Source of the DNA: a virus
Taxonomy: Duplodnaviria; Heunggongvirae; Uroviricota; Caudoviricetes
Virus record (IMG/VR): IMGVR_UViG_2925891887_000001
DNA length: 64,000 nt
Direction: 5' to 3' (one strand)
The notes beneath the pieces were generated by a model. That model searched no databases. It worked only from the letters and a program-made list of their open reading frames with translations, and had not been told where the DNA came from. The position numbers were made by a program, and so were the translations under genes. Position 1 is the stretch's first letter. Every line of letters starts with the position of its first letter. This document shows, in pieces, positions 9,702-62,313 of the stretch.

Positions 9702-9762
9702 AAATTGTTCGCCTCTTCGACATTGCGACAATAAAACTCTCAAAATGGGTTAAGGATAAAAA

Positions 9763-12910: not shown

Positions 12911-13492
12911 TAGATAAGTACAAACTATTCATAAAGTGAATTGTAAGTGCTAAGATCTGATAGTTTCCAGTCGTAGACTGGAGACTCGACCTGATGGGTG
13001 GGGGTAAGCGTCACTGGCGTCAGGTTTAAAAAAGCTCACTACCAGCGTAGAACTGGTGCCGTTTAGGTGTCGGGGAAGGGGGAACCAAAGTGAGCAGAGA
13101 CAAGGGTCACTTTATGATTGTCGAGTCTGGGGTGTTTCGAGAGGTTGAATCCAGTACTCCCCTTCATAAAGTGTGGGAAGATCTCGGTTCTGGGGTGCTG
13201 TCATCCATAACTTCCCAAGTCTAAGCTGGCAGTAGACTTAGACCATAACTTTTCAGGTTATGAAACGACCAGGTTGGTGAGAGATTTTTATACTCACCTC
13301 CCTGGGAGAGTATTACCTGAAAAGACAACCTCTCACTTCGTTCGAGGTGAACTTCACTCACTTCGTTCGTTCAGTTCAGGTTTATAAAAACCTGTTCTGG
13401 GAAGTAATTTGTTTATTTTAATAATTATTAACACGCACGCGTGTGCGCACGCGCGAAGAAAAATCGGCGCGGCGCTTGATTCAGGAGTTTAT

Positions 13493-14083
13493 ATGACGAC
13501 GAAGACACCAGCCCGATCGCAAGCAAAAACTCGCAAAAAAGCCAAAAACAAAAATTCCCCCCGCACCAATCCCACAACGCCTGTCGTAGAGTTCAATCCC
13601 CAGCTTAAAACCGTGAAAATCTTTAGTGATGGCTCTTGCCTTAAAAATCCGGGTGGCCCGGGCGGTTACGGTATCGTTCTCCAGTATCGTGGTGAGGAAC
13701 GCGAGTTCTCAGATGGTTTTCATAGCACCACCAATAACCGCATGGAGATGATGGGGGCACTTATCGGGCTGGAGCGTTTGAAATATCCATGCAACGTTAT
13801 TTTGCACTCTGATAGCCAGTATCTGAAAAACGGCATGACACAGTGGATGAAATGGTGGAAACGCAATGGATGGATGACTTCTGACAAAAAACCGGTAAAG
13901 AATGTTGATCTGTGGAAGCGTCTGGATGAGGCCGCAAGTCGACATAATGTTCGCTGGAAGTGGGTTAAAGGTCACGCCGGGCATCGTGAAAATGAAATAT
14001 GTGATCGACTCGCGAAGATCGCAGCTTTTTCAGCAGCAGATATGCCTCACAAGAAAGATATTGGTTTTGTTTATAATAAATAG
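13493..14083 (+). CDS. rnhA: ribonuclease HI with basic N-terminal extension
   Basis: [41 protein letters not shown], [12 protein letters not shown] colinear with E. coli RnhA; SD CAGGAG. Confidence 0.85.
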
Positions 14084-23500: not shown

Positions 23501-24691
23501 ATGACTGATACCGCTTTTTCAAAATCGTTACAAAAAGAAGTCGATCCTGAGCAGTACTTGGCGCTAAAGAATTTAGATGACAGCTCGGTTCATGCTATTG
23601 CCCGTGACGATATCATCTGCCCCATTTGCAAAGTTGGAGGTGGTTCGTTCGTTAGAGCCACTAGGAATGGTGGCTATCACAAGAAGGCGCATTTCAGATT
23701 TACCGGTGAAGATGGTCAAGGCCATCATCCATCATGTGATTTCTATGGAGATAGACTAACATCTGAGGTGAAGCAGCACCTTGTCTCATTCACAAAAGAT
23801 CGAACAAAGTATTCGCAGGTAATACGAAAGCTGGTCTGTGCCGGCATACAGGAAGGGATATTTACTCAAGAAAAAATGTGGCAGATGAGGGAATGGTTCT
23901 TCAATAAGCGAAAGGATTCCACATTTGAAATATGGTTAGAAAGCGAGCATTTAGACTGGCTTTATTATATTAGTGGGTTACGTGATGCATATCTAGCATG
24001 GACAACTCCTGATATTCTACCTTTCGCGCCCATTCAGGTTACTGTGCCTGGTTTTTCTTGGAAGCGTGCGATTGACAAAGAGGTGCTAAGAGTTCACATC
24101 AAGACTCTCCAGCAATTGCGTGAAATTTCAGTCTCACATAGAGACATTGCTGTAATCTTAGAACACATAAACAATAATCGTGACCGCACAATTCTCGATC
24201 CATCGCATTTGGAGGACGAGATAAGTAAGACCTGTAAGCTTACTAGTTTTGTGATGGGCAATTACATTGAGTTTCAGACAAAAACGGTTAGCGACAGAGC
24301 ATACGGGGAAGCTAAGTTTCTGGCATTTGCAGCACTTTTGTTGTTCGTGTCAGATTGGGACCTCAACATTGCTATTGGTAAGTTTTCTAAGATTGCCAGA
24401 GTGAAGGAGGTTGATGACATGCTGGCTGGTAATTTCATTGGTCTTAATCCTTACTTCCGATACGACCTGGCTAATGCAGTGAAGAGATTGCAGGATAACT
24501 GGCCGATTGAATACCAAGAGTTGGAGCATTGGAATGTTGAGAAATCCATGCGTGACGCATATGAAAAGTGGCGTGCGACAGAGCCTGAATTCGCTCCACC
24601 CCTATTGCCAGACTTGTATATTGCCAAACATGAGAAAGAAGTCGCACAAGACGAGCAAGTCAGGCAGTGGATTAAGAACGGGGATGTTTGA
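23501..24691 (+). CDS. hypothetical protein with N-terminal zinc-ribbon-like motif (396 aa)
   Basis: SD GGAG; CPICKVGGGS ... HHPSCDFYG cysteine/histidine cluster; no family recognised. Confidence 0.45.
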   Translation: MTDTAFSKSLQKEVDPEQYLALKNLDDSSVHAIARDDIICPICKVGGGSFVRATRNGGYHKKAHFRFTGEDGQGHHPSCDFYGDRLTSEVKQHLVSFTKDRTKYSQVIRKLVCAGIQEGIFTQEKMWQMREWFFNKRKDSTFEIWLESEHLDWLYYISGLRDAYLAWTTPDILPFAPIQVTVPGFSWKRAIDKEVLRVHIKTLQQLREISVSHRDIAVILEHINNNRDRTILDPSHLEDEISKTCKLTSFVMGNYIEFQTKTVSDRAYGEAKFLAFAALLLFVSDWDLNIAIGKFSKIARVKEVDDMLAGNFIGLNPYFRYDLANAVKRLQDNWPIEYQELEHWNVEKSMRDAYEKWRATEPEFAPPLLPDLYIAKHEKEVAQDEQVRQWIKNGDV

Positions 24692-24829
24692 GTGTAATTA
24701 GCTTAATCAATCAGTTGATAATGGCGGTCACAATTTGATTCTTTTCTATAAGAATCCGTTGATCGCCACTACTCTTCTTCCATACCTGCAATCACACCTT
24801 TAAATATCAATAGGTTAACGTTGTTTATA

Positions 24830-25675
24830 CCAATAAGAAAACAACTAAATAACAGATCAACGAAACATCAACGCTTTCACCCGATTTGGTCTAAAAAATT
24901 GACGTTTTCACACATCACTTCTTATACCCGTAATTCTACGCAGCAGATAGCGCTACAGCGTCCAAATTTCACCACAGACGACTCAACACACTACCAACAA
25001 AAACACACGCTCAAAATCGCTCCCGTTGCGTTACACAACCATATAAACAACTTATTTTCAGGTATAACAAAACAACTAAATAACACACATGCCATTACCC
25101 AAAACAACCAACCTCTTTATGGCAGGCTACCGAAAAGACCCACCTCTTCTCCCCAGGCTACCGGACAACCAACCTAACTTTCACAGGCAATCCGAAAACA
25201 TTCATACGCGCGATACCCACGACACGCCATTACCCAAACAGCGAAGAAACACCAGAATCACTGAAAACCCAACGAAGCCTGTTACCGCAAGGATTCTCTC
25301 AATCCCAAAAGACACGAAACAGAACAATCACGGGAAACGCCATTACCCAATACACGAATAACTACAAAAGCCTTTCACACACTCCAGACAAACAACTCAA
25401 ACACAATAACGAAAGGAATCGCCCACCTGCCATTACTCCATACACGGAGAAGAACAATCACCAAAACGACGAGAACACCCCATAGAAGAACCACCGCAAA
25501 ACGAACGAAACCACATACACCGACAGAGAGAACAACACACCCAATTCACCAACAGAAATAGTCGCCGTATAGAACGTTCTGGAAGGAGTGAGCATTAACG
25601 CCTATAGAGAGGTTGAGACAGATAAAACACAACATGTATAGCGAAGAAGCCAGGTATGTATAAGTGGGGAGGGAA
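24830..25675 (+). ncRNA. candidate long G-depleted (A/C-rich) non-coding transcript
   Basis: About 12% G over about 730 bp; begins at a half motif-A promoter-like element; four spaced GCCATTACCC copies; ends at terminator 25676-25697; only low-complexity chance ORFs. Confidence 0.3.
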
Positions 25676-25697
25676 GGAGGGGTGTCGCCTCCTTTTT
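25676..25697 (+). terminator. intrinsic terminator
   Basis: ggagg...cctcc stem followed by TTTTT. Confidence 0.5.
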
Positions 25698-25744
25698 CGT
25701 ATTTATTCAACTCCTGATTTTATCCCCCGTAACACCCCTACGGT

Positions 25745-25900
25745 CAGCCTTCGGTCCATACAGGGAAAAGGTTGCATCCCGCTACAGAAACGGCTGGGTT
25801 GCCTTCGGGGAACGGCTGGAGGTTTTCAGGGAAACGGTCGAGTTGCCTGTGTGGATTTCGGGAAAAGGCTCGATGCCGGTTCAGGAACGGTGGCGTACCG
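25745..25900. repeat. array of at least 6 degenerate 22-24-bp repeats with core (C/T)AGGGAAAcGG
   Basis: cagggaaaaggttgc, cagaaacggctggg, cggggaacggctgg, cagggaaacggtcg, cgggaaaaggctcg, caggaacggtggcg. Confidence 0.6.
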
Positions 25901-26271
25901 GTATAGCGAGAGGGAGAGTTGCGGCTACCCACCTGTAATGTGCGGGAAGAAGAGAGGCGCTCACGTAGGCGGACTTGCTTACCGCTGGATTCCCTCTGAA
26001 TGCCCAGCTACAGCGTAATTGTGCCAGACAGCCAGCGGGTCACAATCGATTTCAGTAGGTTTTTGGGGAGAGGATTACTCTGCCACCAGCCACTTTCGGC
26101 CACTAAATCAGAATAATGTAAAAAGTGCACTCGGTACTGAACCTGAAAACTCACTGCCAAAACCACATTCACCGGAATAAAATCCTTTTTCGCCTGTGCG
26201 TTATTGCGATAATAACACCAACAAGTAAACAACATGTTTAGACGTTATATAAACGAAGTGAGGATGAAGAG

Positions 26272-26490
26272 ATGATTAAGATGCCTGTGACGGTTGAGGT
26301 GTGGGGCGTGGATTCCCTGGCTGAGTGTCTGGATGCAGTGGGGCCGGAGTTGTACCGCAAGTTGTGGTCGTTCGTCCCGGCAGAAGGGGAACCGCCCAAG
26401 GGGAAGGATATCTGGCACCTGCTGAGTGAAGATGAAAAGCGGGAGCTGGTGGACGCGGTACACAGCGAGTTCCCGGGCGACGAAGATTAA
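26272..26490 (+). CDS. hypothetical small acidic protein (72 aa)
   Basis: SD GAGGATGAAGAG then ATG; terminator immediately downstream. Confidence 0.45.
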   Translation: MIKMPVTVEVWGVDSLAECLDAVGPELYRKLWSFVPAEGEPPKGKDIWHLLSEDEKRELVDAVHSEFPGDED

Positions 26491-26497
26491 GAGTGAG

Positions 26498-26520
26498 GCC
26501 ACCAGCACGGTGGCTTTTGT
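26498..26520 (+). terminator. intrinsic terminator
   Basis: gccaccagcacggtggc followed by TTTTGT. Confidence 0.55.
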
Positions 26521-26628
26521 CGCTATTAACCTCCGGGCAGCGCAACACCGTAACGATATACTTTGTGGCCGTTTTCTTACTGGTATTGTTTACGCAATTT
26601 AGAAAACAACATGTTTAAGGATTGCTTT

Positions 26629-26958
26629 ATGTTTACAAATATCGACATCAACCAAATCAAGAAATTAACTCAAAAAGAGTTTGATCAGTTTTATGAGTTA
26701 GAAGGTTGGTCTTCCACTCTGATCAATTCAAGATGGGTGCTGGAGCTGATGACTCGTGATGACGCACCTGCTTTGATGATTTGCGACATGGGTGAAGATG
26801 CTGACTTTATGGATATGAGCGAATTTTGTGTGGACACATACAACCGCAGCCAGAAGTACTACTTCACATGCGATAGCGAAAATGACGTGATTTCTAAGGT
26901 CTATCTTCACCTCGTCCAGCATTGGGACGTTCAGGAGTTTCTTGAAGTATTCGAGTAA
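26629..26958 (+). CDS. hypothetical protein (about 109 aa)
   Basis: ATG with AAGGA 9 nt upstream; alternative start 26611. Confidence 0.45.
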   Translation: MFTNIDINQIKKLTQKEFDQFYELEGWSSTLINSRWVLELMTRDDAPALMICDMGEDADFMDMSEFCVDTYNRSQKYYFTCDSENDVISKVYLHLVQHWDVQEFLEVFE

Positions 26959-27111
26959 CCCCAACCAAAGCCAGCATTGCTGGCTTAATTTCTCTATAGA
27001 CGCAGGGAAGAACCTGCATATCGCTCATGCGCCTGATCAATATGCTTTGTAGCCGTTTTCTTACTGGTATTATTTACGCCATTGAGAAAACAAGTTGTTT
27101 ACGGAGTTGTA

Positions 27112-27423
27112 ATGAAAAAATCATTGGTTCTTGGTCTGGACAAAGACCAGAAGAGAAAAGAGAAGCCTGCGCTGGTTGCTCAATTAACTTTGCTGGACAT
27201 CGTTGCCAATGGGACCTCTATTCGTCTGTTCCGTGAAACAGCGGTGTCTTTCGATAAAAACACCTTTACTCGTTATGTAATGAATGTTCGTCGCCAGCGT
27301 GGAAAAGGCTGGGTGGCATTTCAAAGAATGTGGCCGGAACATCAGCTCGAACTGGCTTTGATGGAAGTTAACCGCGTGGCCCAGCAAGAGATTCAGAGAG
27401 CATCAGTGATGGCAATAGCCTGA
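27112..27423 (+). CDS. hypothetical protein (103 aa)
   Basis: SD ACGGAG; motif A at 27085-27100. Confidence 0.45.
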   Translation: MKKSLVLGLDKDQKRKEKPALVAQLTLLDIVANGTSIRLFRETAVSFDKNTFTRYVMNVRRQRGKGWVAFQRMWPEHQLELALMEVNRVAQQEIQRASVMAIA

Positions 27424-27458
27424 TAATGTGCAAGTGGCAATTAGTCGACAGTACGACA

Positions 27459-27486
27459 GCCCCGCCATCCTTACGGGGCTTTTTTG
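27459..27486 (+). terminator. intrinsic terminator
   Basis: gccccgccatccttacggggc followed by TTTTTTG. Confidence 0.6.
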
Positions 27487-27490
27487 TATT

Positions 27491-27506
27491 GTAAGTACAT
27501 ACTTAC
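27491..27506. promoter_or_regulatory. motif B palindrome GTAAGTACATACTTAC
   Basis: Perfect inverted repeat between terminator and gene 27550. Confidence 0.5.
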
Positions 27507-27549
27507 GATCATAGAATAGAAAAATAACCAATACACTACGGAGAGTGAA

Positions 27550-27945
27550 ATGACCGTTAAACGCGAAAAACTGACAGTTGATGTTTACTATGCCTCTGAA
27601 ACCGCCGAAGGTAAGAATGTGGCAAAAATCACCGTTGTTACGTACAACACCGAAACTGGTGCCGAAGTACAGGCCAGTACGATCGTGCGTAAAGGTGATG
27701 CCTCCGGCGGCGAGTACGCGACTCAATACCAGTCCATTCTCGATGCAACTGACCCGCTGCTGCTGAAAATCGAGAACTACTTCCGCCAGGTTGATGAAGA
27801 GGTGTTTGAAACCATGATGAATATGGTTAACACCGTATTCGCCTCCAGCCTGAATACCAACACTACCTGGATTGGTCAGTACGGCCTGCGCATTACCTCT
27901 GGCATTCCTGCCGACACCTTAATCCCTGAAAGCGTATTCGCTTAA
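27550..27945 (+). CDS. hypothetical protein (131 aa)
   Basis: SD CGGAGAG then ATG. Confidence 0.5.
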   Translation: MTVKREKLTVDVYYASETAEGKNVAKITVVTYNTETGAEVQASTIVRKGDASGGEYATQYQSILDATDPLLLKIENYFRQVDEEVFETMMNMVNTVFASSLNTNTTWIGQYGLRITSGIPADTLIPESVFA

Positions 27946-27953
27946 TCCTCTTT

Positions 27954-27982
27954 AAATGGCGCGTAAACCGCGCCATTTTATT
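27954..27982 (+). terminator. intrinsic terminator
   Basis: aatggcgcgtaaaccgcgccatt followed by TTATT. Confidence 0.55.
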
Positions 27983-28062
27983 AAGCCCGATAACAATTTG
28001 TTTTCTGCCTTATCTGATTTGTGAAAATGATTTCACTGAAGCAAGTTAATAAGGAAACCATC

Positions 28063-28437
28063 ATGGGACTTGATATCTATATCGAGACACAGCCTAAAAA
28101 CGATCTGAATAACGAGGCATCCAGAAAGCAGGTTGCTTACTTCCGTAAGTTCAATGCGCTCGTTGGGTGGATGGAGCGCAACGTAGGTGAAGTCGAAAAT
28201 TGTGAGCTTTTAGAATTAACGATGAATGACATTTGTTTTCTGAAGGCTCATTTGATGCACATAAACGAAAGTAATTGCGAAGAGTACTTGCCTACCCGGG
28301 AAGGTTTTTTCTTCGGCAGTCAGGAGTACGATGAAGGTTACTGGCATGATGTGGGGCAGTTGAAAGAGCTTGTGGAAGATCTGATTAAGAACCACGACTT
28401 TCACAATAACAGACTGACCTTCTGCGCCTGGTGGTAA
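28063..28437 (+). CDS. hypothetical protein (124 aa)
   Basis: ATG after SD AAGGAAACC; motif A at 27990-28004. Confidence 0.45.
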   Translation: MGLDIYIETQPKNDLNNEASRKQVAYFRKFNALVGWMERNVGEVENCELLELTMNDICFLKAHLMHINESNCEEYLPTREGFFFGSQEYDEGYWHDVGQLKELVEDLIKNHDFHNNRLTFCAWW

Positions 28438-28439
28438 AT

Positions 28440-28583
28440 ATGGGCGATTTCAAGAAACGCCTGAAGGAAAGAGCCGAGATGGTCAGAAAGCAAAACGCCT
28501 CTTCTGTCATCAGATACGCAAGGCAGTTTAGTCGCAACAACAAATCAGTTGAGGAAAAGATCCTTAGCGTAATCGTGCGATAA
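28440..28583 (+). CDS. small basic protein (about 47 aa)
   Basis: ATG 3 nt after upstream stop; below ORF-track cutoff. Confidence 0.25.
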   Translation: MGDFKKRLKERAEMVRKQNASSVIRYARQFSRNNKSVEEKILSVIVR

Positions 28584-28609
28584 TTATTAAGGCCATCAGC
28601 ATTGGTGGC

Positions 28610-28725
28610 CTTAAATGACCATCTTGTTTCCCGCAGGCTAAAAACACCAACCTCTTACCTCCAGGCAACCGACAAACCCACCTGTTCCCGTCCGGCTACC
28701 GCAACTTTCCACTTTGACGCCTTAT
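28610..28725. repeat. second A/C-rich G-poor segment (related to 24830-25560)
   Basis: caggctaaaaacaccaacctcttacctccaggcaaccgacaaacccacctgttcccgtccggctaccg parallels caggctaccgaaaagacccacctcttctccccaggctaccggacaacc near 25.12 kb. Confidence 0.5.
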
Positions 28726-28751
28726 TCGTACAACGATAATTAACACCAACA

Positions 28752-28766
28752 AGAAAACAATTTGTT
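28752..28766. promoter_or_regulatory. motif A palindrome AGAAAACAATTTGTT
   Basis: 21 nt upstream of ATG 28788. Confidence 0.5.
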
Positions 28767-28787
28767 ATTTACGATAAGGAATTAATC

Positions 28788-29270
28788 ATGAATTTTATCG
28801 CTACTGTAAACGCACCCGCACATGGCAATATCGCTGTAACGTTCTCTGACATTGAAAAACGAGTACTTGGTGCATGGCGCGACAATGAGACGGTAGAACT
28901 GTCAGCACAAGAAAAATGCATTATTGCACGCGACATCATTGGCAATCGTCGTTACTCGCGGGTATTTGAGAAAGCGTATGTGGTAAATTCTGGATTCGGA
29001 ACGTTCGTCTTTCCGGTGCGCTCCGGGCGATTCTGCCAGTCCAAGCTGATTGAGTTCGCTACGCAGATTTCTTTCTGGATTAAAACTCAATCGTCGTTCA
29101 AATTTTCCGACGATGAAGCAGTATCGCAGGGGATGCGGATCGCCAACAATGCAATTAAATGCAAAAACATTACGTATACCGCTGGCGTTGATACATGGAA
29201 ACTGTTTTGCGCTAACTTTATGCTGAATGTATACGCAAGCAACCGCATCCACATCCTTGATGGCGTGTAA
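28788..29270 (+). CDS. hypothetical protein (160 aa)
   Basis: SD TAAGGA upstream of ATG. Confidence 0.45.
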   Translation: MNFIATVNAPAHGNIAVTFSDIEKRVLGAWRDNETVELSAQEKCIIARDIIGNRRYSRVFEKAYVVNSGFGTFVFPVRSGRFCQSKLIEFATQISFWIKTQSSFKFSDDEAVSQGMRIANNAIKCKNITYTAGVDTWKLFCANFMLNVYASNRIHILDGV

Positions 29271-29318
29271 CTGAGAAGAGGGCCAGAAACGGCCCTTTCT
29301 CTATAGCCACCAGCTGCC

Positions 29319-29479
29319 GCAGGGAAATTTTCAGAAACGGCGAGGAACGTATTCATGAGCCGACGGGGAACGGCCAGGATTTTTTCGGGAAACGGCTGCA
29401 TTTGCCTTTGTGTAGAAAAAACATCGGGAAGCTGGTGGAATCCAACCAGCGGTTGTCGGACAGGTGAGCGGGGAAAATT
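29319..29479. repeat. second array of degenerate GGGAAAcGG-core repeats
   Basis: cagggaaattttcagaaacgg, cgacggggaacggccagg, tttcgggaaacggctgc, catcgggaagctggtgg, gcggggaaaatt. Confidence 0.55.
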
Positions 29480-29805
29480 ATGATGACTTTCGTCACCTGA
29501 GACATCCAGATTTCTTTCGTAGCATAATCACATACGTGATTAAGTGGTGTGATTATGTGAAAAATCACGCGCACATAATACGCGAGCGGATACGGAACAA
29601 AACAAAATGCCGATCCGCGCCGACAAATAAACGCGGATCATAAAGCAAGACTAAAAGCCAATGATTAACTATGCGCTATAACGCGTTTTAAGCGCGTTAA
29701 TGTGTTAAGTAATGGGTATGTACTGGCAAGGATATAAAAGCGCGTCTATGGCGTTATTTTGGCGCTTATTTTTATGTTGTTGGAGTGAGTTAAAGACAAT
29801 AAAAA

Positions 29806-31326: not shown

Positions 31327-31851
31327 TTAAAATGGAAGGATTCGTTCAACCCAATCGAAGAAAACAAGTATTTTTCTGCCGTCTTCTAACTTAAGAGTGA
31401 CCTGGCAAGCATCAACGCCTCTTGACACCCCTTCTATTTCACGACCGTCTGTCATGTAGACCCTTATAGATTGGTCGTTTTGATAAGCCTTGCGACATAT
31501 CGCAAAAAAGTCACGGCGTGATGGCTGATTGTCAACATAGTCTGGATGTATTGTTAGCCTACCTTTGAACTCGCGAGCAATGTCATCGATTACACCTGAT
31601 TCAATTGTGCTAATGCGCTCAAGTGGGAGTCTTATACGATTTTCTTTATCATATGGAATCGGGCATAAATCTAGCTTATTGCGTGAAGGCATTGTCCCCT
31701 GAACGTACATGCAAAACACCTGACCGTCTTCAAGCGTGACTCTTACAGGAATGTTGTTCTTCCGCCAGAACATAAGTATGTTCTCAGCATGTTCGTAGTC
31801 TCGCGGCCAGACTTCAGCCGGTATGCCGTAGGTGATGTCCAATGTTCTCAT
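31327..31851 (-). CDS. hypothetical protein (174 aa), AT-rich cassette
   Basis: 4-nt overlap with upstream gene (translational coupling). Confidence 0.45.
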   Translation of the reverse strand: MRTLDITYGIPAEVWPRDYEHAENILMFWRKNNIPVRVTLEDGQVFCMYVQGTMPSRNKLDLCPIPYDKENRIRLPLERISTIESGVIDDIAREFKGRLTIHPDYVDNQPSRRDFFAICRKAYQNDQSIRVYMTDGREIEGVSRGVDACQVTLKLEDGRKILVFFDWVERILPF

Positions 31852-34009: not shown

Positions 34010-35569
34010 CTAATCTCGTTTCAGAACTCCAAAATCGAATGCGCCATCAACAGGCAATACACCTTCTGCAAAGCCAGGTGTGGTGTCGATGATGTGTTTT
34101 CGCTCATAAGAGTGAGACAACAGGTATTTGTTGCTAATGTCAATGAAATCAGTGATAAAACACACGTTTGCCTGATTCTTCTTGGCTCGTAAGCCACGAC
34201 CGACACGTTGTCTCATTTCAACTTCTGCTTTCCCACCACCAGCAAGAATGACCGCACCAACGCTTGGCACATCAACACCGACATCCAGAATAGTCGAGCC
34301 TATTAAAACATCTATGTCGCCAGACGCTAAACTGTTCAGCTTTGCTTGCCTTGTCGACTGGTTCGATTCCCCATAAATGAAGTCAACTCTAAGGCCGGAC
34401 TCTTTCATCATTTCCATCAGGATTTGCCCGTGGCGTTTAAGACGAACCAGAGTCATACAATTGAGAGAATGTTGCTTATAGAGCAATGCTTCGCGAACAA
34501 TGGCCTCATTACGTCCCAAATTATACACGATCCCCAACTGATAAGCCTTTTGGTAGGCAGTGCTCATACCTACTCTAAAATTGAGGTGTTTGTTGGCAAG
34601 TTCTGCCTTGATTCTGGCCTCGTCCGGCTTGTAGGCAACTTTATGATAAAGGAAGTATGGCTTTGCCAGAATGCCTCTATCAATCAGGTACTTTTCCGTG
34701 ACTTTTATTTCAATTCGCCCGGCCACTGCCATCAGACGCATGTTGGCTTCCGTAGAATCCTTCATGAACGGCGTTGCCGTAAGCGCCAGGCGATAGTCTG
34801 CGTTCGCACATAATCTGGCAATGTCATAGAAATTAGAGCCTGAAGACTCATGCGCCTCTTCCAGAATAAGAAGAGAGACACTTGAAAGGAAGCGTTTCAC
34901 CAAGTCCCGACGTTTGAGGTGGTAGCTCTTCTTATCTGGAGTTGCATCGCGTGGTGGTTCTTCAAGGAAACTTGCCAGAGTTTGAACTGTAGCGACGTTG
35001 ATATGTCGTGATACCTGGAACTCACCCGAGCCAATGACTCCAACCTTTTGGTCTTTTAACCACGGTTCGCCATTTTCGGCGCGGTAGTCGATGGATCTCT
35101 GGAAGTTTTCGGCCATCTGAAACATCAGAACAGAGCGGGTTGTTAAAAATAATGTCATTCGACCGATACGTGCAGCTGCTTTGCAGGCAACATTAGATTT
35201 CCCGCCACCAGTAGCGATCTGCGCAATCATCATTCCCTCTCGAACCAGTGTTTCCACAGTCTGATCCTGATATGCATAATCAGGATTGTATGGGAATGGG
35301 TTGACCGCCGGATTTGGCTTTCCAAGCGCCGGAGCTTTGTCTTTGCGGATATGAACACATTTGATGCCCGCCTTGTTCAAGTTCGCCGCTACAGGCTTGG
35401 CAAAGCCAGCAGGGAACGAGTTTTTACTCCAGTTGAACATCGTGCTTGTGCCCTTCCAGTCGCCAGTCTCGACTTCGTAGCTCAACATCTGTTGCACCAG
35501 TTGCTTTACCTTGTCATCTGCGCCAGAAATAAGTGCATTTACTGCGTTAGATACAATCCGAACAGTCAT
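34010..35569 (-). CDS. SF2 (DExH-type) helicase
   Basis: Walker A TGGGKS, motif II LEEAH, motif III LTATP, motif VI RQRVGRGLR; SD AAGAGG. Confidence 0.8.
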   Translation of the reverse strand: MTVRIVSNAVNALISGADDKVKQLVQQMLSYEVETGDWKGTSTMFNWSKNSFPAGFAKPVAANLNKAGIKCVHIRKDKAPALGKPNPAVNPFPYNPDYAYQDQTVETLVREGMMIAQIATGGGKSNVACKAAARIGRMTLFLTTRSVLMFQMAENFQRSIDYRAENGEPWLKDQKVGVIGSGEFQVSRHINVATVQTLASFLEEPPRDATPDKKSYHLKRRDLVKRFLSSVSLLILEEAHESSGSNFYDIARLCANADYRLALTATPFMKDSTEANMRLMAVAGRIEIKVTEKYLIDRGILAKPYFLYHKVAYKPDEARIKAELANKHLNFRVGMSTAYQKAYQLGIVYNLGRNEAIVREALLYKQHSLNCMTLVRLKRHGQILMEMMKESGLRVDFIYGESNQSTRQAKLNSLASGDIDVLIGSTILDVGVDVPSVGAVILAGGGKAEVEMRQRVGRGLRAKKNQANVCFITDFIDISNKYLLSHSYERKHIIDTTPGFAEGVLPVDGAFDFGVLKRD

Positions 35570-39249: not shown

Positions 39250-39882
39250 ATGACGGTCGAAAAAGACGAGGTAAAAACTCGCCTGACACCAGCGGAGTGG
39301 GCCGAAGCTGAAGCCAAATGGACGTCAGGCGAATATACACTCTCAAAGCTGGAGGAAGAGTACGGCATTCGTCGTGAAACACTCTCCAGACATTTCAAAA
39401 AGCGAGGATTAGAGAAAGGCGCGGACTCTGTTGGGAAGATGGTTCGTGAGTCTCTTAAATCTGACGCAGAGCTTCGCGCTAAAGCCCGTGCGGAAAAGAT
39501 AGAAGAACGTCGTACACGTTATGACGGCTGGGCGTATGCGTTGGGGCAGATGGTGATGGTCGAAGTCACTACGGCCAAACGTGAGGGTAAGCCTTTAGGG
39601 GCGATTGAGGATTCTCTCAAGAGCTTACAGAGAGCCAGTAATACCCTTGCAAAATGCTTTGAAGTTTCGTCCAAAGCATTGGGCATGGATCATGCGGAAA
39701 ATGACGAGGAAGAAATTCCGAACCTGGTATTTGGTGAGCTTACGCCTTCCCAGGTGGCGAAATTACGTCAGGAAGACGACGAGCCTGAAATCATCGATGA
39801 CGAATTGCTTGAGACGTTGGAAGAAGAAGCTCTAAGCGAATTTGATGCGACAGATGATGGAAGTGAAGGGGAGGACGAATAA
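39250..39882 (+). CDS. terminase small subunit (putative)
   Basis: Position immediately upstream of terL; N-terminal HTH-like region, very acidic C-terminus. Confidence 0.55.
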   Translation: MTVEKDEVKTRLTPAEWAEAEAKWTSGEYTLSKLEEEYGIRRETLSRHFKKRGLEKGADSVGKMVRESLKSDAELRAKARAEKIEERRTRYDGWAYALGQMVMVEVTTAKREGKPLGAIEDSLKSLQRASNTLAKCFEVSSKALGMDHAENDEEEIPNLVFGELTPSQVAKLRQEDDEPEIIDDELLETLEEEALSEFDATDDGSEGEDE

Positions 39883-60500: not shown

Positions 60501-62313
60501 GGCTGCAAGAGATGAAGCGGCGGCTCTTATTGCTAAGGAAAGCGAGGCTCGTGTTGAAGGCGATGCTGCAAACGCTAAACAACTGGAAGTGTTGCAGTCA
60601 ACGGTAGAGGAAAGCTCCGCTGCCGTTGAAGAAATGAAAAAGACGGTTGCAGAGGTCGATCGTGCCAGTGCAGAACTGACTACGAACATTGAAGCGTTAG
60701 CTAAAACAAATATTGACCTGGCTCTTCGTCAAGATGAAGACCAGCACAAGCAGATGGTCAATAACGCGAAGATCGCAACAACACAGAAAACCTTTGCTGA
60801 TGATATGTCCGCAATGGCCACGAAGGTTGAGGAAATTCGCGTAGAAATTGGCGAAGACATTAAGGCCAGTATTCTGGAAGAGTCCACCGCTCGTGCCGAT
60901 GGCGATGAAGCGTTGGCAAAGCGTGTCACTCAGCTGCAATCTAAGTTTGAAGGAGATATCAGCGCGGCGATTAGTACAGAGCAGGAGGCTCGTACATCTG
61001 CCGATGAAGCTCTGACGACACAAATCACTCAGCTTGAGTCGAAAGTAAGCAACGATATCGTCGCAGCTATTAAGGAAGAGCAAGAAGCCCGAGCAACGGA
61101 AGATTCGGCTCTGGCAAGCCAGATCACCCAACTTCAGGCAAAAGTTGATGATGATATTTCTGCTGCAATACGCAGTGAGCAGGAGGCCCGAGCAAGCGGG
61201 GACTCTGCGTTAGCCAAACAAATAAACCAGCTTCAGTCAAAGGTTGACGGTGATATATCCGCTGCCATCACTCAGGAGCAGGAGGCCAGAGCAAGTGCTG
61301 ACCAGGCGCTCTCACGAGAAATTAACAGCCTGCGAGCACAAACCGGAACTGATATTGCCGCAGCGGTTGCTGTAGAGACAAAAGCAAGGACTGATGCCGA
61401 TAGTGCATTGTCTACCCAGATTACGTCTCTTACAGCAAAAGCTAATGATCTCAAGGCGTCTCTTGCCAGAGAAACAACGGCTCGTGCAGATGGTGATACC
61501 GCTTTAACAAAAGAGGTTTCAAGTTTAAAAGCACAGACAGCGAAAGATATTAGTGCGGCCGTTGCAGTTGAAACGCAGGCTCGAACTGATGCTGACTCGG
61601 CGTTGTCGTCTCAGATCACCAAGCTGACCTCTCAATACAAAGAGGATATTAAAGCGGCTGTAGCAACCGAAACGAAAACGCGTACAGAGCAAGATGCTGC
61701 ATTGGCGACTCAAATCACAAACTTAGAGTCTCAAACGGCAGCCAACATTTCCGCGGCGGTCACAACTGAAACGAAAGCGAGAACGCAGGCAGATAATGCT
61801 CTGAGTGGGCGAATCGATACTCTGAAAGCAGAGGTGAATGGAAATACCGCGACAATTCAACAGCAGGCAACAGCTATTGCTGATACCAACAAAAAAGTGT
61901 CAACCGCGTGGACGTTGAAAATGGAGACTTCAACGAGCGGAGGGCAGAAGTATGTTGCCGGTATTGCGCTTGGTATTGACACCACTGGGCTATCTCAGTT
62001 TTTGGTTCAGGCGGACAGGTTTGGTTTGGTCAACTCTGTTAACGGGAAGATCACAACGCCATTTGTTATCGAAAACAGTATCGCCTATATGAATGGAGCG
62101 TATATCAAGGATGGCACAATCACCAATGCAAAAGTAGGCGATCTGCAATCTACCAATTTTGTTAGCGGTAGATCTGGATGGCGGTTCGGCAAAAATGGAA
62201 CGCTTGAGATCAACGGTAATAGCGGCGGCAATGGGCGATTGGTTATAAATGGTCAGCGGATTGACGTTTATGACGATAACAACGTCCTACGAGTAAGAAT
62301 TGGCCGTCTGTGA
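57586..62313 (+). CDS. central tail fibre / host specificity protein gpJ-like
   Basis: About 1575 aa; colinear with lambda J over the N-terminal about 700 aa (NYPNSVLVGLKVNSEQFGS, GVWDGTFK, DAFGCTSRGQAHRVGLWLL); long internal repeat region. Confidence 0.85.
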   Translation: MEQFKKKKLPLFIAGAGGKKSSKSSSRTPVEADDTVNSRAMAAILDLLGEGVIGGLVNGARSIFIDDLPIVNEDGSSNFSGITWDFRDGSQDQTPMSGFDFVETPKSVNIQLKKTHYVTVSIDNDEADRVRVIMKFPSLRSIDKKTGDTNGTTVEYKFQIANGDSTFVDVVAEGEKSVGIKLTAKKTGVYYRSYELKLPKPGRAYKVRVVRITDDNSSQYLYNDTWVDSIGEIVDTPMNYPNSVLVGLKVNSEQFGSTMPSRSYLVRGLKIRVPSNYNESSNTYAGVWDGTFKLLSSSNPAWILFDLLTNARYGLGQYVSESMIDLGQLYQIGRYCDEEVDDGFGGKEKRFAINTQITSRQDAYRLIQDIAGAFRGMVFWAGGMVNIMQDSPSDPVMMFTNSNVKDGLFTYKGSARKDRPSVALVTYNNKEDGYKQNIEYVEDQDAMRRYGERKTEVVAFGCTSRGQAHRVGLWLLYTARMESDVITFTAGLDASFLMPGETVLIQNKYRAGKRNSGRIVAFTKNSVTLDAPVSLAKGGCFIRILNQEGKIVERDVLETGENITKVTFSKALSSAETPVLNGVWTITEPDLEPMRVRIVNIAQGETPGSFDITAVENNPSKYEAIDNGATLIPQNTTVLDPTYSKPSNLQITEGTYLSSPGNLSVKLTATWEGKSPEYWISWRRSDENNVSNWQSARVTEEQYEIVNVAENGRYDFQLYAVSFNGKKTEIISTVYQVLGTMTPPDAPTSLTAVGDYRNVILNWVNPDSVDLDHINVYASQTNNLDTAKLIAESASTTFTHAGLGDSETWYYWVRASNKRGMLSPPNSNLGTEATTRDVLSFLTGKITSSELGQALLEDINSKASQEAVDELNEHINQSVESLEGAVNDVKEDIAELDKQFSDNLADFEIKFNERSDALENAQTELKGEVSATIDKVNEAFEKIDATDAAIVEIENTVSEHDKALANTVEAIKAARDEAAALIAKESEARVEGDAANAKQLEVLQSTVEESSAAVEEMKKTVAEVDRASAELTTNIEALAKTNIDLALRQDEDQHKQMVNNAKIATTQKTFADDMSAMATKVEEIRVEIGEDIKASILEESTARADGDEALAKRVTQLQSKFEGDISAAISTEQEARTSADEALTTQITQLESKVSNDIVAAIKEEQEARATEDSALASQITQLQAKVDDDISAAIRSEQEARASGDSALAKQINQLQSKVDGDISAAITQEQEARASADQALSREINSLRAQTGTDIAAAVAVETKARTDADSALSTQITSLTAKANDLKASLARETTARADGDTALTKEVSSLKAQTAKDISAAVAVETQARTDADSALSSQITKLTSQYKEDIKAAVATETKTRTEQDAALATQITNLESQTAANISAAVTTETKARTQADNALSGRIDTLKAEVNGNTATIQQQATAIADTNKKVSTAWTLKMETSTSGGQKYVAGIALGIDTTGLSQFLVQADRFGLVNSVNGKITTPFVIENSIAYMNGAYIKDGTITNAKVGDLQSTNFVSGRSGWRFGKNGTLEINGNSGGNGRLVINGQRIDVYDDNNVLRVRIGRL
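60880..61840 (+). repeat. about 10 tandem about 99-bp (33-aa) repeats within J-like gene
   Basis: Units of form E(Q/T)(E/K)AR(A/T)xADxALxxQITxLxxKVxxDISAAIxx. Confidence 0.65.

What the first reader, a model, noticed from the sequence alone, without database searches (positions are those of the whole stretch)
25745..25900. Array of degenerate GGGAAAcGG-core repeats (iteron-like or RNA-binding-protein sites)
Immediately after the G-poor region and its terminator lie at least six imperfect repeats spaced 20-25 bp with core (C/T)AGGGAAA(A/C)GG. The chance ORFs over it (25656-26018 plus, 25744-25932 minus) owe their length to the repeats. Regularly spaced protein-size repeats resemble replication-origin iterons or operator arrays; if transcribed, the repeated GGA-containing units would resemble multi-site RNAs that titrate GGA-binding proteins such as CsrA. 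Both readings are speculative.
Basis: partly seen in the sequence, partly recalled or inferred. Interest (0 to 1): 0.7.

Follow-up and report, generated by a model that had tools for sequence, protein, structure and literature searches.

The report
Paired repeat arrays bracketing phage-plasmid early operon
The six GGGAAAcGG repeats are real and strongly conserved, and with a second copy 3.5 kb away they bracket a block of small early genes in SSU5/pHCM2-type phage-plasmids; they look like docking sites on DNA for an unidentified protein, not like the plasmid's own replication repeats or a CsrA-titrating RNA.

Summary
The window is an E. coli SSU5/pHCM2-like phage-plasmid.

**Observation: confirmed and sharpened**
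- Six same-strand units, consensus yrGGGAAAmGGCTGG, lie at 25761-25905. Core spacing is 22/22/22/31/22 bp.
- In about 50 distinct relatives the cores are 86% identical and the spacers 53%. Spacing is kept almost without indels.
- The overlapping ORFs are composition artefacts.

**New**
- A paralogous array lies at 29320-29437, just after the hairpin that ends the six-gene early operon (26272-29270). The operon is therefore bracketed by two same-orientation arrays.
- This layout, and the GGGAAACGG core, persist in a distant Klebsiella relative whose neighbouring protein is only 33% identical. Yersinia pestis pMT1 keeps array 2.

**What it is not**
- Not plasmid RepA iterons. Those sit beside repA, outside the window, and read CTCTCTATAGTGGAT.
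- Not a known RNA family or a stably folded RNA.
- Not an abundant RNA in LF82 lysogens.

**Best reading**
- Phased DNA sites for a conserved, unidentified protein, acting in lytic replication or early-operon control. The closest analogues are the T4 oriE iteron cluster and the P1 incC/incA bracket.
- The binding protein and the function are inferred, not shown.
- The CsrA-sponge idea is unsupported but not excluded for the lytic cycle.

The parts
25761..25905 (+). Array 1: six 22-bp units. The 9-nt cores are GGGAAAAGG (25763), CAGAAACGG (25785), GGGGAACGG (25807), GGGAAACGG (25829), GGGAAAAGG (25860) and CAGGAACGG (25882).
   Evidence: Conserved in 50 distinct loci. Cores 86% vs spacers 53% identity, with almost no indels.
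29320..29437 (+). Array 2, a paralogue of units 1-4 of array 1: CAGGGAAAT (29320), CAGAAACGG (29332), GGGGAACGG (29365), GGGAAACGG (29387) and a degenerate CGGGAAGCTGG (29425).
   Evidence: PWM scan, sequence, conservation in E. coli, Enterobacter, Klebsiella and Yersinia lineages, alignment to array 1.
29280..29302 (+). GC-rich hairpin GGGCC-AGAAAC-GGCCC followed by TTTCTCT, 10 nt after the stop codon of the last early gene. Its loop and 3' arm carry one more core (GAAACGG at 29286).
   Evidence: Read from the sequence. Conserved as GGGGC-TGGAAAC-GCCCC in other lineages. The consensus terminator scan did not list it.
26057..26073 (+). Orphan unit AGGTTTTTGGGGAGAGG, about 135 bp upstream of the early promoter -10.
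   Evidence: Direct repeat D15 with 25820-25832. Conserved as CAGTAGGTTTTCGGGRAGA in the non-SSU5 lineages.
25650..25740 (+). Conserved block immediately left of array 1. It comprises TATAAGTGGG, a purine/G-rich tract, a terminator-like hairpin (25671-25697), CGTAnnnAnTCAAG and ATCCCCCGTAAC.
   Evidence: Phylogenetic footprint, hairpin. CGTAGAAATTCAAGC is kept even in the distant relative L216.
24700..25560 (+). A/C-rich, G/T-poor untranslated region with four GCCATTACYC motifs (25091, 25226, 25339, 25429).
   Evidence: Composition, motif count above all shuffles. Both composition and motif are conserved in all lineages, including L216.
24899..24928 (+). Conserved promoter-like element: A-tract, TTGACG, 18 bp, TATACC. 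It points into the A/C-rich region.
   Evidence: Sequence. Nearly identical in E. coli, Enterobacter, SSU5 and pSTM_Phi lineages. The consensus scan did not list it. Promoter activity is inferred.
26201..26245 (+). Near-invariant early-operon promoter region: palindromic TTATTGCGATAATAA with an extended -10 TGCGATAAT (26205-26213), and the leader.
   Evidence: Conserved in all 7 aligned lineages and in L216. A 20-nt exact match was found in 55 viral contigs. Promoter assignment is by reading; the scan listed a different weak site.
26272..29270 (+). Bracketed early operon of six small genes (72, 109, 103, 131, 124 and 160 aa), all of unknown function.
   Evidence: ORFs, PHROG hits all 'unknown function', no Pfam or NCBIfam family. 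Expression rises in LF82 macrophage samples while the array ORF does not.

Best explanation
Arrays 1 and 2 are clusters of phased recognition sites on double-stranded DNA for one conserved sequence-specific protein. That protein is either encoded by the phage-plasmid or is an Enterobacterales host factor.

**Proposed mechanism**
- Protein bound cooperatively to the tandem 22-bp units builds a nucleoprotein complex at each end of the six-gene early operon.
- I think the complexes most likely serve the lytic cycle, as an iteron-type control or initiation region. It would combine upstream transcription (promoter-like element at 24899, A/C-rich untranslated RNA, G-rich tract) with iterons and small early genes.
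- This resembles T4 oriE, and it resembles the P1 and SSU5 RepA arrangement, in which two iteron sets flank the controlling gene.

**Shown:** the arrays, their phasing, the core/spacer conservation pattern, the bracket arrangement, and their distinctness from the RepA iterons.

**Inferred:** that the target is DNA rather than RNA, that a single protein binds both arrays, and that the role is replication rather than purely transcriptional control.

The confidence of 0.45 is for the statement as a whole. The DNA-binding-array part alone I put at about 0.6, and the replication-specific role at about 0.3.
For: - **Form.** Six tandem same-strand units at 22/22/22/31/22 bp.
- **Conservation.** Cores are 86% and spacers 53% identical across lineages.
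- **Spacing.** Four divergent lineages show zero indels in 145 nt of array, against 2-3 in the 61-nt left flank and 3-5 in the 79-nt right flank. Spacing itself is therefore constrained, as expected for a rigid duplex carrying a cooperative protein array. Across 50 loci, 167 of 211 spacings are exactly 22.
- **Unit-wise change.** PhiR41_1 lacks one 22-nt unit.
- **Bracket.** Array 2 is paralogous, in the same orientation, and sits on the far side of the operon in every lineage examined. No other cluster was found in the ~102 kb of Cyrano fetched or in most of an E. fergusonii relative.
- **Depth of conservation.** The core is unchanged in a Klebsiella relative whose neighbouring protein is 33% identical, and in Y. 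pestis pMT1.
- **No RNA signal.** No RNA structure, no Rfam family, and no transcript accumulation over array 1 in five LF82 conditions.
- **Dispensable for plasmid carriage.** IS insertions removed array 1 in L031, L059 and L189, and pMT1 lost it. This fits a phage-phase function.
- **Gene content.** The element encodes T4-like replication and recombination proteins: UvsW, UvsY, gp32-like SSB, RecA, SbcCD and RNase HI.
- **Precedent.** T4 oriE has evenly spaced iterons, depends on an early promoter, and lies beside small early genes (PMC3016281). SSU5-type RepA is itself flanked by two iteron sets.
Against: - No binding protein was identified.
- None of the bracketed proteins has a recognisable DNA-binding family.
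- The two proteins that were modelled (103 aa and 160 aa, pLDDT 79 and 83) have no significant PDB fold match.
- No DnaA box lies beside array 1 (the nearest consensus match, 29556, is ~120 bp past array 2), and there is only a weak AT-rich patch.
- Within one array only about 9-13 of 22 bp are shared, which is less than in classical iterons.
- Spacings in array 2 (12/33/22) and in the distant relative (28/22/12 and 37) are not all multiples of a helical turn.
- All units lie on one strand and each array follows a hairpin, which would equally suit an RNA-level or co-transcriptional role.
- An invariant core across very divergent relatives is unusual for Rep-iteron pairs, which normally co-diverge.
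- The RNA-seq evidence is from lysogens only, counted over a mis-annotated CDS.
Confidence: 0.45

Rival explanations
1. The arrays are operator or insulator sites for transcription control. A regulator bound to both arrays, and to the orphan unit near the promoter, would loop or wall off the early operon. This would keep it silent in the lysogen and block read-through from the expressed upstream accessory gene. The analogy is to lambda OL-OR looping or to the P2 C repressor's 22-bp-spaced direct repeats (both from my own knowledge).
For: - The arrays bracket one operon and each follows a terminator-like hairpin.
- An orphan unit lies 135 bp upstream of the -10.
- The upstream gene (CYRAN_102) is expressed in lysogens while the operon is low in LB.
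Against: - Array 1 lies 320-440 bp from the promoter and does not overlap it.
- Six tandem sites are many for an operator.
- No regulator was identified.
- The operon can rise roughly 10-fold or more in macrophage samples, so any silencing is leaky.
Confidence: 0.25
2. The units act in RNA. Read-through or lytic-phase + strand transcripts would carry multiple single-stranded GGA-containing sites. These would bind CsrA, or another RNA-binding protein such as the element's own FljA-family/Sm-like protein. The effect would be to titrate that protein or to modulate termination or mRNA fate.
For: - All units, the orphan and the hairpin-loop copy are on the + strand, which is the direction of transcription.
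- Both arrays lie just after hairpins.
- Five of six units contain GGA, and unit 1 reads AUACAGGGA, matching the SELEX-type CsrA motif RUACARGGA (motif from my own knowledge).
- A 22-nt spacing is within the range a CsrA dimer can bridge (own knowledge).
- An invariant core across distant relatives fits an invariant host protein.
- A conserved promoter-like element lies upstream.
- The element encodes an FljA-family protein with a weak Hfq/LSM hit.
Against: - No match to CsrB, CsrC, Rsm or any other Rfam family.
- No excess folding and no conserved hairpins presenting GGA.
- The conserved core (GGGAAAmGGCTGG) is much longer than a CsrA site, and unit 2 lacks GGA in most E. coli copies.
- Exact spacing conservation is not needed for flexible RNA.
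- Reads over array 1 stay near the floor in five conditions.
- No UvrY box is present.
Confidence: 0.12
3. The arrays are a centromere or packaging recognition site, for the element's small ParA-type partition system or for small terminase.
For: - No repeat array was found next to parA in Cyrano, so the centromere is unassigned.
- In phage-plasmid N15 the centromere sites are dispersed (own knowledge).
- Chi sites cluster around the operon (5 of 16 within 3.4 kb, P about 0.001, post hoc). This could mark a nearby DNA end.
Against: - The arrays are far from parA (outside the window) and about 13 kb from terS (39250-39882).
- The units are degenerate rather than homogenised as in most centromeres.
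- Plasmids persist without array 1.
- No data on virion DNA ends were found.
Confidence: 0.08
4. The arrays are extra binding sites for the plasmid initiator RepA, giving copy-number control by titration or handcuffing.
For: The form is iteron-like. P1 and F use distal iteron sets (own knowledge).
Against: RepA iterons in the close relative Cyrano are CTCTCTATAGTGGAT at 21-bp spacing on both sides of repA, and share nothing with GGGAAAmGGCTGG. The arrays are about 34 kb from repA.
Confidence: 0.02
5. The arrays are a functionless relic of tandem duplication, or a chance pattern.
For: The units are degenerate, and some plasmids have lost array 1.
Against: Core-specific conservation, spacing retention and a conserved second array extend across Escherichia, Salmonella, Enterobacter, Klebsiella and Yersinia, and into a relative with 33% protein identity.
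Confidence: 0.03

Closest known systems
Bacteriophage T4 oriE iteron cluster (with small early genes repEA/repEB)
   Same: - An evenly spaced cluster of short direct repeats lies in a phage region next to small early genes and downstream of an early promoter.
- It is conserved in syntenic relatives.
- The phage uses UvsW/UvsX/UvsY/gp32-type replication-recombination proteins.
- The role of the repeats is still undefined (PMC3016281).
   Different: - The T4 repeats are 12 nt, whereas here the period is 22 bp with a 9-13 nt core.
- Here there are two arrays bracketing the operon, plus a 0.9-kb A/C-rich untranslated region.
- No sequence or protein homology to repEA/repEB was tested or seen.
- Origin activity is unknown here.
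Iteron origins and control loci of theta plasmids and phage-plasmids (R6K gamma 7 x 22 bp; P1 incC/incA flanking repA; the SSU5-type RepA region itself)
   Same: - Tandem direct repeats with a period of about two helical turns, with spacing conserved.
- Two sets flank a gene block. This is seen directly for the Cyrano RepA iterons. The R6K and P1 details are from my own knowledge.
   Different: - No Rep-family initiator lies between or beside the arrays.
- There is no DnaA box and no clear unwinding element.
- Only about half of each unit is conserved.
- The core is invariant across very divergent relatives instead of co-diverging with a Rep.
CsrB/CsrC/RsmX-Y-Z sponge RNAs
   Same: Many GGA-containing sites are spaced about 20 nt apart on one strand, and some match CA(R)GGA.
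   Different: - No covariance-model match.
- No hairpins presenting GGA and no folding signal.
- No abundant transcript in lysogens, and no UvrY box.
- The conserved core is longer than, and different from, a CsrA site.
Paired operator sets that loop DNA (lambda OL/OR); direct-repeat operators spaced 22 bp (P2 C repressor)
   Same: Multipartite sites lie on both sides of a gene block, and the repeat spacing is two helical turns (own knowledge).
   Different: - The sites are direct repeats, six in a row, and do not overlap the promoter.
- No repressor has been linked to them.

Membership tests
Iteron-type replication origin / control locus | Tandem direct repeats of about 17-22 bp, phased at about two helical turns | tested here: met
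   Six units at 22/22/22/31/22 bp. 167 of 211 spacings are exactly 22 across 50 loci. Array 2 and the distant relative are less regular.
Iteron-type replication origin / control locus | Adjacent gene for a Rep initiator that binds the repeats | tested here: not met
   No Rep family appears among the flanking or bracketed proteins in Pfam, PHROGs or NCBIfam. Two modelled proteins have no DNA-binding fold match. The element's RepA has different iterons elsewhere.
Iteron-type replication origin / control locus | Neighbouring DnaA boxes and an AT-rich unwinding element | tested here: not met
   No TTWTNCACA lies within 24.5-26.3 kb. The window has 4 hits against 7.6 expected. Only a 27-bp moderately AT-rich patch exists at 25699-25725.
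Iteron-type replication origin / control locus | Origin or incompatibility activity | not testable with these tools
   This needs replication profiling or cloning assays.
CsrB/Rsm-type CsrA sponge RNA | Match to a curated family model | tested here: not met
   No Rfam hit at gathering score over 64 kb, and none of these families at E<10 over 24500-26400.
CsrB/Rsm-type CsrA sponge RNA | Repeated GGA motifs presented in hairpin loops of a well-folded RNA | tested here: not met
   GGA is present in 5 of 6 units, but folding z-scores are 0.02 (+) and 0.57 (-). The consensus fold is weak on both strands.
CsrB/Rsm-type CsrA sponge RNA | Abundant transcript driven by a UvrY/GacA-dependent promoter | tested here: inconclusive
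   Reads over CYRAN_104 are near the floor in five lysogen conditions, and no UvrY box is nearby. The lytic cycle was not sampled.
CsrB/Rsm-type CsrA sponge RNA | Binding of CsrA | not testable with these tools
   This needs EMSA or CLIP.
T4 oriE-type iteron cluster | Evenly spaced direct repeats beside small early genes, downstream of an early promoter, in a phage with T4-type replication-recombination genes | tested here: met
   Arrays, promoter-like elements, small early genes, UvsW/UvsY/gp32/RecA/SbcCD/RNase HI annotations, and the T4 description. This is a resemblance of layout only.
T4 oriE-type iteron cluster | Homology of repeats or of RepEA/RepEB | not tested
   No T4 sequences were compared. 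The unit length differs (12 vs 22).
Type III toxin-antitoxin repeat RNA (ToxI-like) | Near-identical tandem repeats followed by a ToxN/AbiQ-type endoribonuclease gene | tested here: not met
   The units are degenerate, and no such family appears in the downstream genes.

The most novel reading that the evidence does not exclude
The whole 1.6-kb non-coding locus, together with the bracketed operon, is a second, lytic-phase replicon of SSU5/pHCM2/pMT1-type phage-plasmids.

- A promoter that is silent in lysogeny makes an unstructured A/C-rich RNA.
- That RNA ends at a purine/G-rich tract, where it primes or opens DNA. It is processed by the element's own RNase HI and controlled by its UvsW-like helicase.
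- The two GGGAAAmGG arrays bind a novel small initiator or control protein encoded between them.

This would be the first defined lytic origin for this very widespread family, and a working model for the unexplained T4 oriE iterons.
Probability: 0.25. Interest if true: 0.75.

Novelty: new variant of a known kind. Interest (0 to 1): 0.5.

Why it matters
SSU5/pHCM2-type phage-plasmids are very common. DNA similar to this locus occurs in 717 plasmid records, and 803 records carry the neighbouring 160-aa gene. They include pHCM2-like plasmids of Salmonella, pMT1 of Yersinia pestis, and many resistance-carrying Klebsiella and Enterobacter elements.

How they switch from plasmid maintenance to lytic replication is not known. 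I found no description of this non-coding locus in the papers I could search.

A conserved, precisely phased pair of repeat arrays around the early operon gives concrete targets for experiment. These include array deletions, DNA pull-downs and replication profiling. Such work could find the lytic origin or early-gene switch and identify a new DNA-binding protein. If the CsrA idea were right after all, it would reveal a phage-borne regulator of host physiology.

Tried and rejected
**RNA readings**
- Known RNA families: Rfam at gathering score over the whole window, and at E<10 over 24500-26400. The only hit was a chance DUF3800-VIII match at E = 2.2.
- Structured RNA: single-sequence folds of both strands are no better than shuffles. 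Consensus folding of 24 non-redundant relatives gave a weak structure on both strands.
- UvrY box: none nearby.

**Replication and partition**
- Plasmid RepA iterons: located in Cyrano and found to be unrelated in sequence.
- Rep beside the helicase: the 352-aa and 246-aa proteins next to the helicase/primase genes have no Pfam, NCBIfam or PDB sequence match.
- Centromere next to parA: no repeat array there.
- DnaA boxes: none next to array 1; the nearest consensus match (29556) is ~120 bp past array 2.

**Looking for the binding protein**
- The 103-aa protein looked like a helix-turn-helix by eye. Its model is a four-stranded sheet plus a helix, with no PDB match.
- The 160-aa protein model also has no match.

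**Other leads**
- The GCCATTACCCAATAC motif resembled the E. coli fliC leader, prompted by the FljA-family gene. The local alignment score was 18 against a shuffled mean of 18.8, so this was rejected.
- GCCATTACCC as the inverted form of the array core (GGGTAATGGC vs GGGAAAMGGC): only 8 of 10 positions match, and the extended consensus differs. This is left as a weak lead.
- A protein-based search for distant loci in viral contigs returned only close relatives.
- Papers on virion DNA ends of SSU5-like phages: none found. A 2026 preprint on RepA of a pHCM2-like element could not be opened.
- An elemental-pause consensus (GG-N8-YG) fits some units but not their orthologues, by reading the units listed, so it was dropped.
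- Coding potential of the overlapping ORFs was rejected.

Full report
**Identity of the window**

The stretch around the finding is 92-97% identical to Escherichia phage-plasmids CMS-2020a, Cyrano and PhiR41_1, and more distantly related to Salmonella phage SSU5. A more sensitive search found the 25560-26280 segment in 717 plasmid records. These come from Klebsiella, Escherichia, Enterobacter, Salmonella, Citrobacter and Cronobacter, almost all non-mobilizable and of the IncFIB (pHCM2) type.

In every annotated relative the finding lies inside a 1.5-2 kb stretch with no credible gene. The upstream boundary is a variable accessory gene. The downstream boundary is a conserved run of small + strand genes.

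- The sequence shows six units on the + strand. A simple core, G[GA]AA[AC]GG, hits at 25765, 25787, 25809, 25831, 25862 and 25884, giving spacings of 22/22/22/31/22. The - strand has no hit there. The whole 64-kb window has only 20 + strand hits.
- Stacked in register, the units share yrGGGAAAmGGCTGG, and the remaining ~9 nt of each unit differ.
- I collected relatives with the invariant 20-mer at the downstream promoter, which gave 55 viral contigs, and added annotated plasmids and phages. This gave 50 distinct versions of the array.
- 27 of the 50 have six recognisable cores and the others have four or five. 167 of 211 spacings are exactly 22 and 33 are 31.
- In the Klebsiella lineage the long spacer is 9 bp shorter, so that interval is also 22.
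- PhiR41_1, a phage whose recorded host is E. coli K-12 MG1655, lacks one 22-nt unit.
- Between lineages the cores are 86% identical and the spacers 53%. Four divergent lineages have no indel in the 145-nt array. The 61-nt left flank has 2-3 indels and the 79-nt right flank has 3-5.
All three + frames are open across the G-rich array, and relatives differ by 9- and 22-nt indels.

**A second array brackets the early operon**

- A weight matrix built from the units found one strong site outside the array, at 29383. Reading that region shows a second array at 29320-29437. It reads CAGGGAAAT, CAGAAACGG, GGGGAACGG and GGGAAACGG, followed by a degenerate unit.
- This array begins 17 nt after a GC-rich hairpin (29280-29302). 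The hairpin follows the stop codon of the last early gene, and its loop carries yet another core.
- Array 2 aligns with units 1-4 of array 1.
- It is present in E. coli, Enterobacter and Klebsiella lineages, including a contig whose array 1 was removed by an IS.
- No other cluster was found in the ~102 kb of Cyrano fetched, or in the ~104 of 110.5 kb of an E. fergusonii relative scanned.
- An orphan unit sits at 26057-26073, about 135 bp upstream of the early promoter.
- The six-gene operon 26272-29270 is therefore flanked by two same-orientation arrays about 3.5 kb apart, and each array lies just after a hairpin.

**Deep conservation**

I used the 160-aa protein that precedes array 2 to find distant relatives.

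- A Klebsiella ozaenae plasmid has only 33% identity in that protein but keeps the full layout: an A/C-rich region of about 0.9 kb with GCCATC.CCC motifs, the CGTAGAAATTCAAGC element, four or five CGGGAAACGG units, the TTATTGCGATAATAAC promoter, and two GGGAAACGG units after the operon's hairpin.
- Y. pestis pMT1 has lost most of the operon and array 1 to IS1541, but keeps the 160-aa gene and array 2.
- The core is therefore constant across the SSU5 supercommunity. This points to a binding partner whose specificity does not drift.

**What the arrays are not**

- *Not the plasmid origin.* Cyrano's RepA gene (60633-61688) is flanked on both sides by 21-bp-phased CTCTCTATAGTGGAT iterons, with DnaA boxes and GATC clusters. 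It lies about 34 kb from the array, and outside this window.
- *No sign of an RNA gene.*
  - Rfam gives nothing.
  - Folding energy equals that of shuffled sequence on both strands.
  - Consensus folding of 24 relatives is weak and similar on both strands.
- *Not an abundant RNA in lysogens.* In the LF82 RNA-seq table, the CDS wrongly laid over the array (CYRAN_104) stays at log2 2.6-4.7 in all five conditions. The adjacent early genes CYRAN_105, 107 and 111 reach 7.3-7.8 in macrophage samples (PMC9928086, S1 table). Array 1 is therefore not part of the early mRNA. These data do not cover lytic growth.
- *Not required for plasmid carriage.* IS insertions have removed array 1 in three natural plasmids or contigs.

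**Surroundings**

- Upstream lies a conserved A/C-rich, G/T-poor region (12% G over 24700-25560) with four GCCATTACYC motifs.
- It is preceded by a strongly conserved promoter-like element: an A-tract, TTGACG, 18 bp, then TATACC, at 24899-24928.
- Between that region and array 1 is a conserved block. It holds TATAAGTGGG, a purine/G-rich tract, a terminator-like hairpin and CGTAnnnAnTCAAG.
- TATAAG is probably not a -10 element, because the distant relative has TGTAAG at that position.
- The element encodes UvsW-, UvsY-, gp32-, RecA- and SbcCD-like proteins and RNase HI.

**Interpretation**

Several features fit best with sites on rigid duplex DNA that are bound cooperatively by one protein:
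- a fixed 22-bp period;
- conserved cores with free spacers;
- avoidance of indels;
- deletion in whole units;
- a second array across a gene block.

That is an iteron- or operator-type array.

For function I favour a lytic-phase replication or control role. The layout parallels T4 oriE, which has evenly spaced repeats of unknown role, depends on an early promoter and lies beside small early genes (PMC3016281). It also parallels the two-sided iteron arrangement around RepA in this same family. Loss in degenerate plasmids also fits a phage-phase function.

The main rival is transcriptional insulation or looping of the early operon.

An RNA-level role, including CsrA binding, keeps some weight. 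All units are on the transcribed strand and follow hairpins. Several match CA(R)GGA. An invariant core would suit an invariant host protein.

The weaknesses of the favoured reading are these:
- No binding protein was found.
- There is no DnaA box or clear unwinding element.
- Spacing is irregular in array 2 and in the distant relative.
- The transcript evidence comes from lysogens only.

**Verdict**

The 'iteron-like' reading is right in form but wrong if taken to mean the plasmid origin. The CsrA reading is unsupported. I found no published description of this locus in the searchable library. It is a new variant of the direct-repeat protein-binding array, of moderate interest. Its value lies in giving a defined handle on the unknown lytic switch or origin of a very widespread phage-plasmid family.

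Noticed in passing
window 29280-29437: A second, paralogous GGGAAAmGG array lies directly after the hairpin that ends the early operon. The operon is therefore bracketed by two same-orientation arrays. Array 2 is conserved in all lineages examined, including Y. pestis pMT1.
   Followed up: yes
window 24700-25560 and 24899-24928: An A/C-rich, G/T-poor untranslated region of about 0.9 kb carries 4-6 copies of GCCATTACYC. It is preceded by a strongly conserved promoter-like element (A-tract, TTGACG, 18 bp, TATACC). Composition and motif are conserved even in a relative with 33% protein identity. The function is unknown; a Rho loading zone, a primer RNA or a protein sponge are possibilities.
   Followed up: partly
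window 26083, 26445, 26499, 29307, 29431 (and 11 other sites): The Chi octamer GCTGGTGG occurs 16 times in the window against 1.7 expected. Five of these lie within the 3.4 kb around the bracketed operon (binomial P about 0.001, post hoc). CCACCAGC is conserved next to both arrays in most lineages.
   Followed up: partly
window 31327-31851 (- strand): A 174-aa protein of the FljA family (Pfam Flag1_repress, 3e-80) has a weak Hfq/LSM-like hit at residues 123-165. It may be a phage-plasmid regulator of host flagellin translation. Its Cyrano homologue (CYRAN_114) rises in macrophage samples. A suspected link to the GCCATTACCCAATAC motif through the fliC leader was tested and rejected.
   Followed up: partly
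window 26201-26215: A near-invariant palindrome, TTATTGCGATAATAA, overlaps an extended -10 (TGCGATAAT) at the early-operon promoter. Similar sequences lie at 9720 and 22979. From memory it resembles the phage P1 C1 operator ATTGCTCTAATAAATTT, so it may be the operator of the prophage repressor.
   Followed up: no
L067 10149-10631 and 11727-12253 (phage Cyrano, outside the window): The plasmid RepA gene is flanked on both sides by 21-bp-phased CTCTCTATAGTGGAT iterons, with TGTGGATAA DnaA boxes and GATC clusters. This is the true plasmid origin of this family.
   Followed up: yes
L031, L059, L189 (NZ_CP058829.1), L215 (pMT1): IS elements (IS26, IS1541 and other IS/transposase insertions) have repeatedly removed array 1 or cut the non-coding locus in plasmids that still persist. 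pMT1 keeps only the 160-aa gene plus array 2.
   Followed up: partly
window 29520-29570: Operator-like palindromes (TAATCACATACGTGATTA and a related GTGTGATTATGTGAAAAATCAC) and a run of bidirectional terminator hairpins lie between array 2 and the convergent - strand genes.
   Followed up: no
window 13409-14083, 34010-35569 (-), and Cyrano CYRAN_52-55: The element carries a T4-like replication-recombination set: RNase HI, UvsW-like helicase, UvsY, gp32-like SSB, RecA and SbcCD. This suggests R-loop- or recombination-dependent lytic replication.
   Followed up: no
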